DNA of 64,000 bases from the NCBI GenBank assembly GCA_964016885.1, contig OZ024740.1, positions 338,892,001 through 338,956,000 on the forward strand, given 5' to 3'. The notes beneath the pieces were generated by a model. The model was not told the DNA's origin, made no database searches, and was given only the letters and a program-made list of their open reading frames with translations. Both the position numbers and the translations under genes were made by a program. This DNA comes from Eledone cirrhosa (lineage: Eukaryota). This document shows, one piece after another, positions 19,098-25,561 of the stretch. The first letter of the stretch is position 1. Every line of letters starts with the position of its first letter.

Positions 19098-19690
19098 GAA
19101 ATACTGCAGGTCGCACATGGTAACATGTAATAAAATAAGTCCCAAATCAGTGATTTGCCGAAGATCATAGATATTTCATTGCATTAAAAATCATATATCT
19201 CACTTCGGTGCAATAATAACCAAAATAAGTTATTAGGACAATTAAAACGCGTAAAGCGAGTGAGACAGGAGAACAACAGAAAAATAGCATACCTTAGGGG
19301 AGAAACAAGCTTCAAAAATTATTCGTTTAGCATAAGCTAGGTGAATATATGAGAGCTTAGAGAATAGTACCAACACGAACGAAAGCCATTGAGCAGAGAG
19401 AGAAAAAATAGCGTTCGTGAGTGCAGGATGAAATGAAGAGAAGAGGGAGAAAAACAGTGAGTGAGTGAAAGTGTGAGGAAGAGTTAACGGACAAGACAGA
19501 GGGGGAGAAACAGAGAGAATGGGGGAACAGTAAGAGAGAGAGAAAAAAACACAGAATCGCAGTGGTAAATATATGTATTAAAATATAGAGAAAAATACTG
19601 CAGGTCGCACATGGTAACATGTAATAAAATAAGTCCCTCATCAGTGATTTGCCGAAGATCATAGATATTTCATTGCATTAAAAATCAAAT
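19098..19690. repeat. ~500-bp non-coding unit with ~90-bp terminal direct repeat
   Basis: aaatactgcaggtcgcacatgg...cattaaaaatca at ~19098-19192 and ~19594-19687. Confidence 0.8.
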
Positions 19691-19700
19691 AACAGATTAA

Positions 19701-19751
19701 AGTTTAAGCAAAGAATCGCTGCTTTCACCCTTAACGGGTTCTTCTGAAACT
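19701..19751 (-). ncRNA. Type I hammerhead motif (U4A core) in the 3' pLTR
   Basis: AGTTT-CAGAAGA-ACCC gttaa GGGT-GAAA-GCA gcgattctt TGC-TT-AAACT. Confidence 0.65.
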
Positions 19752-20466
19752 AACAACGTCAATCTGTGAACTCAGAAGTGAATATTTCAAAAAACGTTGC
19801 AACCGGAGGAAGACAGGAAGACGTTACTGTGGTTCGTAGAAACATCCCCTGGCACAGAACGGGAAAAAACGAATATTATACGTCATTATTTGGAGCGGTG
19901 AAAAACAATACACGCAAAGGCAAAACCACGTTTATAGTATAAAAGATGTCGTTGACTAATATTCTATTAGGTGGTTCATAGAGACTTTCTCTGGCAATGA
20001 ACGGAAAAAACGAAGATAATACGTCATATCTGGAGCGTTGAGAACAATTGCACGCAAAGACAAAACCACGTAAAAGGTATAACAGAAGTCGTAGACTAAA
20101 ATTCTAACTAGGAAACCGAATGATTCTCGGCTTCAGAGTTAAGAATAAAGTAAATAAAATATAGAGGTACTTGAAATTAAATAAATACATACACGTATCC
20201 ATATACGTACATACACAAGCATACGCGAAAACACTCGCCATACGTATACAAATACGCGCATATATATATATATATATATATATGTGTGTGTGTGTGTGTG
20301 TGTGTGTGTGTGTGTGTGTGTGTGTGTGTGTGTGTGTGTGCGTGAACACGTACCTTCACAAAACATACAGGTAATATATACTTGCATATACAAATAAGTA
20401 ATGCTATAAATATAACATATACTTAGCTACCACATTAGGACGTATAATATCCGCGTATAGTTGGTA

Positions 20467-22594
20467 CTATCCGTTAGGGTAAAATGTGGGGCTGTAATAC
20501 AGGAAAGTTTCGTGCAATTTATGTTTACAAGCCGAAATTACCTCAGATTTTTTGTTTAAGATGTGGTCTGTGGCGTAGAGTATGTCCAGGGCCTCAGCGG
20601 CGCAGAGGTCACATGGTCTTTTATTTCCGTTATACCATCTAGCCCTAGCTAGGATCTCCCAGTGTAACTTATATTGGGTGTGGTTGTCTTTTAGACTCCA
20701 GATATAAGCTGAAAGTGACGTCATATTTCTTCTTAAAGGGTAACGAAAAGAATGGGTATGCATGTAAAGACGCTGCTTGAATCTATTGGCGGTTAACCCT
20801 ATGTAGGCCCTACGGGACGTGGGTGTTTGAACCTTACATTTGTAGACAATGTTACTAGAGAGGCATTTCCCGGATAGGGGGCAATCAACCCGATTCCTAC
20901 AATTACAGTTAGTACTAACTATATGGTTGCACGTGTTCCTACGGCTAGGTAGTTTAGCTAAATTTGAAGCTGTGATGTTATGTGCTAAGTTAGGAGTCGT
21001 AGAGTAAGAAATTTTAATAGTATTTCTATTAAAAATGTTATTATATTTATGTGTAGGGGGAAAATGTTTCGTATTAAGGGAGAGAAAGATCTTAGCTAAT
21101 GGTGTGGCCACCTCCATATTATATGGTGGGTTATGCGATATAATGCGCCGGGATCTATTTCTTCTACGTCTATTCTCGTACTCTGTATATGCTACCTTAT
21201 CGACAAATCCACTCCGAGCAAGAGCTTCTTTTTAACATGTGGAATGGTAGTTGAAAATATGCTCGTTAGTAGATAGACGGGAAAGCCTCAAAGAAACGTT
21301 TCTTAACAGGTTCTTGGTTATGCTGGCAGGATGGTTAGAATGCTTACTTATGTAATTAAGCGTATCATTCGGCTTTCTATACGGGTAATAGAAGCTATTC
21401 GATAAATTGAGGGTAACGTCGAGGTAATTAACGACCGAGAGGTTGGCCTCAACCTGTATAGAGAGGTTGAAGCCTTTAAAGAAGGCTGTGAGTTCTTTTC
21501 TGAACCTGTCGCAAGCAGGTGGGCCGCACTTAGTCATGGTCAAAAGACCATCATCACGGTACAAACCACCGCCCACGTTGGGGAATTCGTCCTTGATAGA
21601 GAAAAGAAGGAAAAGGCCGATAAGATCTGTAACCTCCGCAGAATCGCTGGCGCCCATACCCACGTCGAATGGGCTACTATTAGATTTTTTAATCCAAATA
21701 GAGTCGTCGAAATTAAACACCGACTTACGGGCATTGAGGATGACATCAACTACGAAATCCTTAACCACTGTGAGTGTTTTAGCGAAATTGATAGCTCTAA
21801 GGAGAAGTGGTAAAGTGATGGAGGAGTAGTAATTGTTGATGTCGAATTGGATAAAACGGCAATGTTCCTTGTTGCATATGCCGTTGAACCAATCAATCAC
21901 CGCGAAAGAATTGTTCCACAGTGCAAGAGGGGCCAAACTTCTAATTTCAGGTATAATTCTATCAAGAATCCTTTTACTAAGTCTATCTAAATCGGACTTC
22001 GTAGGGTTAATAAGCCGAATAGAGGGGTTGTTCGGAAATTTGGATTTGTGATCCTTCAGGGTAAAGTGGGGAGGAATAGGGTCCAGATGTTCGGTCCGGT
22101 CAAGGATGTTGAGATCAGAGGTGATTTTAAACCCAGCATCGTTGATTTCATTAATGACGCACCTATTAGTTTTACGGTAATCCTTAGTTACAGTATTATG
22201 TAGTAGTTGATGGTAAGTACTGCGCTCCACTTGATATAGGTTGCCAGTTTTGTCGGAATGGACGTGCACAACATTAGAATCCTTAATAGAACGAATTCTA
22301 TTCTTCAGGTCCTGCTGGGAGGAATTGCTCCTATTCCGAAATTTGATACTCCGTATGAGTTTCAAGACATCATTTTCGAAGGGTAGCAATGCTAGGTTAC
22401 ACGAGGGTAATTATAGGTTTTGAACCCAAATATATCCTGTTTCTTGTCTGCTTTTCCCTGATTATCGAAATAAAAGGCACGCCAACGCAACCTTTTAATG
22501 AACGCGTCAGTTTTCTGTATCAAGAGTTTATGTATGTTTTCCTGGTTGGAACGGGTATGTTCTTTGTAGAAATATTCAGATGTTGTTTCTACAT
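20467..22594 (-). pseudogene. Naiad-type PLE reverse transcriptase + C-terminal GIY-YIG endonuclease (one early stop, ~3 frameshifts)
   Basis: NISTKNIPVP / FIKRLRWRAFYF / SDKTGNLY / LKDHK..IRLINPTKS / FIQFDINNYYSSI / FDVGMGASDSAE / GLYRDDGL / NYLDVTL / YRKPN..SNHP / CNCR..CPLSGKCL..IVY..YIGLT..FKQR..CDLC..E..LNKKSE..CKH. Confidence 0.92.
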
Positions 22595-24165: not shown

Positions 24166-24206
24166 CGCTGTACTAGTTTCAAGCTTGTTAGCTATCGTCA
24201 GCAACG
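24166..24206 (-). ncRNA. Type I hammerhead (inverted-arm copy)
   Basis: CGTTG-CTGACGA-t-AGCT aaca AGCT-t-GAAA-CTAG-TA-CAGCG. Confidence 0.75.
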
Positions 24207-24564
24207 TATACCTTCCTGCCAGATAGTTGAACATCCGAAAGTATATACTTTCTTATGCATATTAACAGCTGAGTAGCGGTGAATCCATACGTACATATAT
24301 ATATGTTTGCATGTATGTATATATATATATATACATACTACTGTACCTCTGTATATATATATGTATGTACGTATACATACTCATATTTAAGTAACAGCCG
24401 TACTCAGAGTGGGAAATGAAATTTCGTTTCATATTTTCCGTTTATCGTTTTCGGTGCACCCGCCTGATTAACCCACTCGATATGTAAATTGGGCTACTCA
24501 GCCGTTAATATGCATAAGGAAAGTATATACTTTCGGAGGTTCAACTATCTGGCAAGAAGGTATA

Positions 24565-24605
24565 CGTTGCTGACGATAGCTAACAAGCTTGAAACTAGTA
24601 CAGCA
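24565..24605 (+). ncRNA. Type I hammerhead
   Basis: GTTG-CTGACGA-t-AGCT aaca AGCT-t-GAAA-CTAG-TA-CAGC; palindromic stem III. Confidence 0.75.
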
Positions 24606-25561
24606 TTCCTTTGTCAGTGTTGAACAAACGAGCAACGGTGGTTGCTAGACACTACGGCTTAATACGGGACGTTTGTTTACAAACACACCGAGCATTATAA
24701 TAAATGTTTGGTGAATCCATACGTACATATACATATGTGTGCATGTATGTATATATACATACTACTGTACGTCTGTATACATATATGTATGTACGTATAC
24801 ATACTTATATATATATATATATATATATATATATATATATATATATATATATATATATATATATATATATACATATATATATATATATATATATATATAT
24901 ATATGTGTGTATATATACATATATATATATATACGTATATATATGTATATATATATATATATGTATATATATATATATATATATATATATGTATGTATAT
25001 ATATATATATATATATATATATATATACGTATATATATATATGTATATATATATATATGTATATATATATATGTATATATATATATATATGTATATATAT
25101 ATATGTGTGTATATATATATATGTATGTATATATATATATATATATACATATATATATATATATATATATATATATATATATATATATATATATATATAT
25201 ACATATGTATGTATATATATATATATATATATATATATATATATGTATATATATATATACATATACATATATATATGTATGTATATATATATATACCTAC
25301 ATATATGTATATATATAAATATATTTATATATATATATATATTTTTATATATATATATATAAGGATATATATTTATATATATATATATATATAAATATAC
25401 ATATATATATATATATATAAGAAGTTAATATCCCCACAGGTACTAAGTACCCCTGGAAATATATAGGGTGTCTATGATACAATGGTTGTTCTATGGTATT
25501 AATTTGACATACCAGAACTAATTTTGGCGTTCTCGGGACTTTTTGTCCAAGGAAAGGAAAA

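What the first reader, a model, noticed from the sequence alone, without database searches (positions are those of the whole stretch)
19098..24810. Composite 5.7-kb insertion: non-coding unit + Naiad + retrozyme joined without spacers inside one (TA)n array
Seen: between two huge (TA)n arrays, a ~500-bp terminally redundant unit joins the Naiad pLTR at ~19687, where the Naiad's normal tail (22640-22735) is missing. The Naiad 5' truncation then joins the retrozyme arm at 24045-24055 through a stutter (ttgaatctattggcta-ttgaatctatt). The retrozyme arm is co-oriented with the Naiad. Inference: serial template switching by one Naiad RT, which would physically link this RT clade to mobilisation of the ORF-less HHR RNA.
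Basis: partly seen in the sequence, partly recalled or inferred. Interest (0 to 1): 0.75.

Follow-up and report, generated by a model that had tools for sequence, protein, structure and literature searches.

The report
Stacked Penelope and ribozyme-repeat insertions
Three common jumping elements sit joined without spacers in one TA repeat, but the left one is much younger than its neighbour, so the pile-up likely formed in two or three steps rather than in one copying run; the left element carries a predicted self-cutting RNA with its parts in a scrambled order and begins exactly at its predicted cut.

Summary
The junctions are real and single-copy, but the retrotransposon is a Hydra-clade Penelope-like element, not a Naiad, and one serial template switch through all three parts is refuted. 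The left unit X (1.2 monomers of a 495-bp ORF-less family) has 2 private changes in 589 sites where 14 are expected at the Hydra copy's rate (P=1e-4); a second locus repeats this. All three families target (TA)n, and 8 of 95 sampled X or Y loci lie within 110 nt of another family, some tail-to-tail. The right junction stays open: retrozyme Y is as old as the Hydra copy (P=0.30) and its inverted arm has twin-priming geometry. The primer was either the genomic Hydra end (about 0.55) or nascent Hydra cDNA (about 0.35). X carries hammerhead blocks in the scrambled S-G-C order, with compensatory changes in stems I and III but no canonical stem II. The X/Hydra joint falls on the predicted cut, where X-family junctions are about 3-fold enriched. 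A published Naiad consensus has the same layout. The scan noted scrambled hammerheads and Hydra/retrozyme pile-ups before, on other DNA of this and other genomes.

The parts
17808..19098 (.). Left (TA)n array ending in (AG)n; target of unit X
19099..19687 (-). Unit X: one 495-bp monomer (19099-19593) plus 94 nt; 3' end at 19099, 5' end at 19687; ORF-less tandem family; youngest part
   Evidence: (916 exact 30-mer hits)
19138..19200 (-). Scrambled (S-G-C order) hammerhead pattern, copy 1: all blocks present, predicted cut 19194/19193, core changed to CTGATTT by a private doublet at 19144-19145
19632..19687 (-). Same pattern, copy 2: begins exactly at the predicted cut (19687); GAAA and CTGATGA intact, 5' half of the S block absent
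19688..24044 (-). Hydra-clade Penelope-like element, partial tandem: pLTR A 19687-20790, ORF, leader/tail 22636-22724, 5'-truncated pLTR B 22735-24044; 3' end 10 nt short of the normal untailed end
   Evidence: (28,070 exact 30-mer hits)
20467..22593 (-). Broken RT + C-terminal GIY-YIG ORF (DKT, YRDD, CxCx5C); stop near 21233 and a change of frame near 22410
22745..22799 (-). Type I hammerhead-like motif of the pLTR with core CAGAAGA (second copy 19697-19751); predicted cut 22754/22753
24045..24057 (+). Templated stutter of Hydra sequence; the last three bases (ATT) also fit retrozyme Y
24055..24277 (-). Inverted arm of retrozyme Y with type I hammerhead (core 24201-24177); its RNA 3' end is internal and overlaps the start of the sense copy by GGTGAAT
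24278..24813 (+). Sense copy of retrozyme Y, 1.2 monomers (433 bp here); type I hammerhead core 24570-24594; normal untailed 3' end at the right array
   Evidence: 2,695 exact 30-mer hits
24809..25419 (.). Right (TA)n array

Best explanation
The block is a Hydra-clade Penelope-like copy with two ORF-less ribozyme repeats joined directly to its two ends, likely built by three separate target-primed insertions into one (TA)n tract. Shown: three independent multi-copy families; TA targeting; single-copy junctions; X much younger than the Hydra copy; Y of similar age. Inferred order: (1) the Hydra copy inserted as a partial tandem and left a short stutter at its 5' joint. (2) Y inserted at that boundary at about the same period: one target strand primed at Y's normal 3' end in the TA, and the other strand, ending in the Hydra stutter, primed inside the same Y RNA through ATT, which gave the inverted arm (twin priming). 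(3) Much later X inserted in the TA at the Hydra 3' end; its RT likely ran off an RNA 5' end made by the predicted scrambled hammerhead, and the joining removed the remaining TA and at least 10 nt of Hydra.
For: Age: X has 2 near-private bases in 589 sites against 14.0 expected from the Hydra copy's context-specific rates (95 of 3,892), P=1e-4. The two Hydra pLTRs differ at 48 of 992 sites, 2.4% per copy, a figure that needs no relatives. The best other ORF copy is 96% identical among 40 scored of 3,576 candidates; X has 99% relatives. Replicate: at L026 X (6 of 1,486) sits 6 nt from an older Hydra 3' end (10 of 522), P=0.002. Adjacency is common: 4 of 51 position-ordered X loci and 4 of 44 Y loci have another of the three families within 110 nt (L188 read); 3 of the 4 Y cases are tail-to-tail, which one cDNA cannot make. 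X 5' joints without TA: 12 of 46 flagged, about 7 after removing alignment artefacts by eye. Arms with internal ends and non-TA flanks occur without a partner element (Y: L111, L183; Hydra: L045, L058). Self-stutters at X 5' joints occur at L299, L306, L308. No X or Y piece was seen directly at any of 52 listed Hydra 5' junction rows, some of them duplicates (read by eye).
Against: Y cannot be separated from Hydra by age (15 of 745 against 17.9 expected, P=0.30; pairwise P=0.10). The stutter survives up to the Y arm, so Y would have had to land at the exact Hydra boundary. None of the 95 position-ordered loci shows a zero-spacer joint (shortest 6 nt). All 4 close neighbours of X lie at X's 5' end and face it with a 3' end, a bias that random stacking does not predict, though n is small. 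9 of 10 other neighbour pairs showed no significant age difference, most with little power. Private-change dating may overstate Hydra's age because only 31-82 of its copies were sampled. No allele data.
Confidence: 0.55

Rival explanations
1. Two events. The Hydra copy and retrozyme Y were inserted together: the two target strands primed on two different RNAs, the Hydra cDNA stalled, stuttered and then primed inside the Y RNA just upstream of the stalled Y cDNA. X was added later.
For: Same age within error. No TA at the joint, and the stutter is intact up to a 3-nt match. These families routinely insert as two arms primed from both target strands (5 of 5 two-armed X loci have one long and one short end; most two-armed Y and Hydra loci likewise). 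An unchecked scan note (e1-10324047) reports a retrozyme piece between two arms of one Penelope copy.
Against: The landing point (24716-equivalent) is neither the predicted cut (about 24602) nor a normal 3' end (24813 or 24445 equivalents). The same geometry exists without Hydra (L111). A tail-to-tail pair can also be age-matched (L188, 1.3% vs 1.6%). My rough estimate from the sampled rates is about one such joint per genome from stacking alone. No second example was found.
Confidence: 0.35
2. Separate insertions once parted by TA spacers, later fused by deletions repaired with microhomology and templated insertion (polymerase-theta-like repair; recalled, not tested).
For: 1-nt and 3-nt microhomologies, a templated insert, and the loss of 10 nt at the Hydra end.
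Against: A random deletion would not end exactly on X's predicted cut, nor within 7 nt of the start of Y's sense copy.
Confidence: 0.07
3. One reading: one RT copied X, then the PLE, then Y in a single run.
For: The three pieces are co-oriented and spacerless. X ends at a predicted free RNA 5' end, where end-to-end jumping would start (R2 behaviour, recalled). The outer ends are one long type (X) and one short type (Y), as in normal two-armed insertions.
Against: X is far younger than the PLE copy (P=1e-4). No recent source copy of the PLE. L026 shows the same layout with unequal ages. X's ribozyme layout matches a published Naiad end, not the Hydra type I motif.
Confidence: 0.03

Closest known systems
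Hydra clade of Penelope-like elements (Craig et al. 2021, PMC8557442; passages, supplement searches and supplement part 24 read)
   Same: RT then C-terminal GIY-YIG, DKT, RW[KR], CxCx5C, CxxC and CxH, (TA)n target, partial tandem, tail at one end only, hammerhead in the pLTR; stretches of the published Hydra proteins match by eye.
   Different: Core reads CAGAAGA in 75 of 79 sampled copies; at least 28,070 copies of the pLTR motif; tail of about 89 nt against the 30-40 bp described.
Naiad clade (same paper)
   Same: (TA)n target. The published Naiad_Ovul 3' end shows hammerhead blocks in the same S-G-C order as unit X, with the same 23-nt spacing between GAAA and CTGATGA (read by eye).
   Different: The window's ORF has no N-terminal endonuclease and no DKA. 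The published Naiad motif has no match in this genome at up to 2 mismatches, so X's driver is not identified.
Animal non-LTR retrozymes (Cervera & de la Pena 2020, PMC7229834, passages; Li et al. 2026, bioRxiv 10.64898/2026.07.22.740005, parts 1-3 of 5)
   Same: Y is an ORF-less tandem unit of about 420-433 bp with one type I hammerhead per monomer; PLE mobilisation is proposed in both papers.
   Different: In the parts read, neither paper shows a PLE-retrozyme junction or two-armed insertions. Y has no alignable similarity to this Hydra pLTR. X has a non-type-I motif.
Type-SGC non-circularly permuted hammerheads (Eckert et al. 2023, PMC10085705; abstract, passages, section 13)
   Same: Block order S-G-C; stems I and III cross; short link between the S-side strand of stem I and stem II.
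   Different: Reported there from metatranscriptomes and not from genomes of known organisms. X lacks a Watson-Crick stem II next to the core (one pair, then G-A/A-C mismatches), and no cleavage has been tested.
L1 twin-priming 5' inversions (recalled, no call)
   Same: The inverted segment covers RNA just upstream of the sense copy, overlaps it by a few bases, and is primed by microhomology.
   Different: Here the RNA is a tandem or circular retrozyme and the target is (TA)n with no visible target duplication.

Membership tests
Naiad PLE | GIY-YIG endonuclease N-terminal to RT | tested here: not met
   RT motifs precede the GIY-YIG motif in the window and in the intact copy L080
Naiad PLE | DKG motif modified to DKA | tested here: not met
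   DKT (definition)
Hydra PLE | C-terminal GIY-YIG, single ORF | tested here: met
   714-aa open frame in L080, 92-93% identical to the window's two ORF pieces; Pfam gave no significant hit
Hydra PLE | RWK, DKT, CxCx5C linker, CxxC and CxH in EN | tested here: met
   RWR, DKT, CNCRNRVDC, CDLC, CKH
Hydra PLE | (TA)n insertion preference | tested here: met
   53 of 82 3' regions abut at least 6 nt of TA; 9 of the rest are internal tandem joints and most others are AT-rich
Hydra PLE | Canonical hammerhead in the pLTR | tested here: inconclusive
   Three stems pair, but the core is CAGAAGA rather than CTGANGA; no Rfam hit
Hydra PLE | Placement in an RT tree | not tested
   Compared by eye with supplement alignments only
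Non-LTR retrozyme (Y) | ORF-less tandem monomer with a type I hammerhead in each unit | tested here: met
   CTGACGA core in 214 of 221 sampled motifs; stems I and II pair; arrays up to many units
Non-LTR retrozyme (Y) | Self-cleavage and circular RNA | not testable with these tools
   No RNA runs were laid
Non-LTR retrozyme (X) | Type I hammerhead | tested here: not met
   GAAA precedes CTGATGA; no type I order. X works like a retrozyme but fails this feature
Type-SGC hammerhead (X) | Block order S-G-C with conserved core | tested here: met
   Descriptor hits in nearly all X monomers, 1 hit on reversed control sequence
Type-SGC hammerhead (X) | Stems I and III with covariation | tested here: met
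   Stem I pair 5: T-A 46, C-G 19 of 69 distinct motifs; stem III pair 3: T-A 35, C-G 23, T-G 9. These reflect about two lineages, so one event per stem
Type-SGC hammerhead (X) | Watson-Crick stem II next to the core | tested here: not met
   Pair 1 64 of 69; pairs 2-4 only 1-3 of 69
Type-SGC hammerhead (X) | Site-specific self-cleavage | tested here: inconclusive
   Indirect only: 17 junctions at the predicted cut per 2,563 motifs against 2 at each of three control sites
Single-event RT chimera | All parts of one age | tested here: not met
   X vs Hydra P=1e-4; Y vs Hydra P=0.30
Single-event RT chimera | All-or-none alleles, empty site | tested here: inconclusive
   No listed read or contig bridged either junction

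The most novel reading that the evidence does not exclude
The locus holds two molecular records at once. The right joint is a true capture of retrozyme RNA by the nascent cDNA of a Hydra Penelope RT, direct sequence evidence of which RT clade handles such RNAs (about 0.35 alone). The left joint maps, to the base, the in vivo cut of a scrambled hammerhead in an animal non-autonomous retroelement, a ribozyme layout shared with Naiad ends that were described as lacking canonical hammerheads (about 0.65 alone).
Probability: 0.25. Interest if true: 0.72.

Novelty: new variant of a known kind. Interest (0 to 1): 0.46.

Why it matters
Mobilisation of animal retrozymes by Penelope-like elements is proposed but, in the parts of the papers read, rests on co-occurrence and pLTR similarity. 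This locus shows that spacerless joints alone do not prove it, because shared TA targeting stacks the families and dating can split them. It leaves one testable candidate joint. Unit X offers a short, abundant sequence with a precise predicted cut, so one transcription assay would test whether scrambled hammerheads act in animal retroelements and may explain the hammerheads reported missing from Naiads. My searches listed no paper on such a motif in animal repeats or on PLE-retrozyme chimeras; the library lacks most subscription papers.

Tried and rejected
Rfam at gathering score and at E up to 10: no ribozyme family, only low-complexity miRNA hits. Pfam: nothing significant for the PLE ORF. 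Composite spreading as a unit: rejected, junctions single-copy. Recent mobilisation of an old Hydra copy together with X: no source copy above 96%. A-to-I editing as the cause of Hydra's divergence: rejected, A>G is 4 of 95 changes. X as a type I or type II hammerhead: rejected, no stem II partner in those orders. Fold-back on the cDNA for the Y arm: disfavoured, no homology at 24277/8 and no reason to stop at the sense copy's start. Allele test with public runs: shares of 0.51 or less, as expected from family copies, and no listed record bridging a junction; uninformative (4 of 11 listed runs laid). Published Naiad ribozyme motif: 0 matches in this genome. A genome-wide count of X-Hydra neighbours at variable distance was not obtained; samples were used. 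Automatic scoring of TA-less Y joints (14 of 18) was unreliable for a diverged subfamily and is not used. PMC8857657 (three passages) gave nothing usable. Supplements of the bioRxiv preprint were not seen and may hold retrozyme/PLE junction data.
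Full report
Observation. The sequence is as described. Between two long TA arrays lie a left unit X (19099-19687), a Penelope-like element on the minus strand (19688-24044), a 10-nt stutter, an inverted arm of a hammerhead repeat Y (24277 to 24055) and a plus-strand copy of Y (24278-24813). Each junction string occurs once in the 3.0-Gb assembly, and junction-spanning searches gave no second copy among 40 scored candidates each.

The PLE is Hydra, not Naiad. Craig et al. 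(PMC8557442, passages) define Naiads by an N-terminal endonuclease and DKA, and Hydra by a C-terminal endonuclease, RWK, DKT and CxCx5C. The window's ORF and an intact natural copy (L080, 714 aa, 92-93% identical) have RT first, RWR, DKT and CNCRNRVDC, and they match published Hydra proteins by eye. No tree was built. A pLTR 30-mer has 28,070 exact hits. Of 82 Hydra 3' regions in 75 loci, 41 end at the untailed site, 39 at the tail (9 of them internal tandem joints) and 2 elsewhere. A missing tail is therefore normal; the window's end is 10 nt shorter than the untailed site and lacks TA.

X and Y are independent families. X is a 495-bp tandem unit with a fixed 3' end and variable 5' truncation (916 hits). 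Y is a 420-433-bp type I hammerhead retrozyme (2,695 hits; core CTGACGA in 214 of 221 sampled motifs). Both insert in (TA)n, and two-armed copies usually pair one long with one short end, as Hydra does (5 of 5 for X). This footprint suggests PLE enzymes but does not name the clade (inference).

Dating. Against genome relatives, the Hydra copy has 95 near-private changes in 3,892 sites. X has 2 in 589, one doublet, against 14.0 expected after adjusting for base context (P=1e-4). Y has 15 in 745 against 17.9 (P=0.30) (a first pass with fewer copies gave the same picture). The two pLTRs differ at 48 of 992 sites, 2.4% per copy, and share subfamily variants. The best other ORF copy is 96% identical, so no recent source locus is held. 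The mutation spectrum is not that of editing. X therefore arrived later. L026 repeats this: young X, older Hydra, same orientation, P=0.002; nine other neighbour pairs showed no significant difference, mostly with little power. Caveat: Hydra relatives were thinly sampled (31-82 copies per segment).

How common is adjacency? I took the loci behind the first 100 pattern hits on contig C1: 51 X loci and 44 Y loci (one 12-kb Y array was left out; two neighbouring Y loci were fetched as one). Four X loci and four Y loci have another of the three families within 110 nt, always with a spacer of at least 6 nt. Three Y cases are tail-to-tail, as is L070. About 7 of 46 single-armed X copies have TA-less 5' joints (12 flagged, 5 dropped as alignment artefacts). 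Against simple stacking: all four X neighbours sit at X's 5' end facing it with a 3' end.

Right junction. The arm's RNA 3' end is internal and overlaps the start of the sense copy by GGTGAAT, the geometry of twin priming (recalled from L1). It is not the predicted cut or a normal end. Internal-ended arms with non-TA flanks occur without partners (L111, L183, L045, L058), and self-stutters occur at ordinary 5' joints (L299, L306, L308). Sequence cannot tell whether the primer was chromosomal Hydra DNA or nascent Hydra cDNA. Equal age and the intact stutter favour the latter. The base rates, about one such joint per genome from stacking by my rough estimate, and the lack of any X or Y piece directly at 52 listed Hydra 5' junction rows favour the former. 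I put them at 0.55 and 0.35.

Left junction and the ribozyme of X. An earlier scan note (e1-8668800) pointed to type-SGC hammerheads (Eckert et al., PMC10085705). A descriptor finds the S-G-C order in X with 6-bp stems I and III, against 1 hit in reversed control sequence. Diverged relatives (4,386 hits of a degenerate pattern) keep both stems through one compensatory change each; stem II has only its first pair, so a defining feature is not met. X begins at 19687, exactly the first base after the predicted cut. Genome-wide, 29 motifs have a non-native base before that site; 17 are true junctions, this one included, and 12 are point changes or an insertion (two automatic calls corrected by eye). 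Three control positions gave 2 junctions each. Rates are 17 of 2,563 against 2 of 1,050 for the one control whose total I counted (P=0.08), and P=0.01 against the pooled controls with two estimated totals. TA-flanked joints are 33 against 3 and 2, but that pattern covers a wider window at the cut. The enrichment is about 3-fold and modest. The published Naiad_Ovul end shows the same layout by eye, but that motif is absent here, so X's driver is unknown. Neither window copy of the motif is intact.

Alleles. Public runs held family copies only, and no listed record bridged a junction. This test remains open.

Comparison and novelty. Li et al. (bioRxiv 10.64898/2026.07.22.740005, parts 1-3 of 5) and Cervera & de la Pena (PMC7229834, passages; PMC4209133, passages) propose PLE mobilisation of retrozymes from co-occurrence, shared hammerheads and pLTR similarity. 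Six literature searches listed nothing on PLE-retrozyme chimeras or scrambled hammerheads in animal repeats. The scan has noted both themes before on other DNA; those notes are unchecked leads. As a composite the locus is an ordinary pile-up with one open joint; the scrambled motif in an ORF-less mobile unit is a new variant of known kinds.

Verdict. Observation largely right, clade wrong, three-way switch refuted (0.03), Hydra-Y capture possible (0.35). Interest 0.46.

Noticed in passing
window 56680-57315: Second, more diverged two-armed copy of retrozyme Y (74-87% identical), hammerhead at 56972.
   Followed up: no
window 62827-62995: Short tailed 3' fragment of the same Hydra family with a 21-nt inverted piece.
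   Followed up: no
window 16335-16907 (-), 28346-29218 (-), 16049 (-), 52563 (+): Endonuclease ORF pieces of other Hydra-like families and CTGAAGA hammerheads with a palindromic stem III.
   Followed up: partly
window 58745-59224 (+): ORF piece that looks like the thumb and linker of another PLE clade (recalled resemblance; no Pfam support).
   Followed up: no
window 43777-45943 (+): DUF4371-bearing ORF in two frames, likely a hAT-type transposase (Pfam hit; family label recalled).
   Followed up: no
window 8619-9113 (-): ORF piece resembling a Helitron/PIF1 helicase (recalled, untested).
   Followed up: no
window 19746 and 22794 (-), family-wide: This very abundant Hydra family has a fixed non-canonical core, CAGAAGA in 75 of 79 motifs; L058 and L160 have arms or jumps that end at its predicted cut, which hints at activity.
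   Followed up: partly
L181, L200, L217: Two-armed Y insertions whose arms are truncated at the same monomer position (perfect palindromic joints).
   Followed up: no
L298, L308, L313: X-family 5' ends lie 12 nt from a Y 3' end and 40 nt from a Hydra 3' end at the predicted cut; L313 has a 17-nt Hydra-tail-like piece at an X joint.
   Followed up: partly
L091, L227, L233: The same short unrelated repeat sits at Hydra breakpoints, twice at the equivalent Hydra position.
   Followed up: no
G000:C1:81546816-81596712: Satellite-like array of X-related units at about 515-bp spacing, at least 50 kb long.
   Followed up: no
L188:693-4467: A 2.6-kb duplication that contains a two-armed Y insertion, next to a full Hydra partial tandem.
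   Followed up: no
L165, L183, L054: Three further, unrelated sequences fit the S-G-C descriptor.
   Followed up: no
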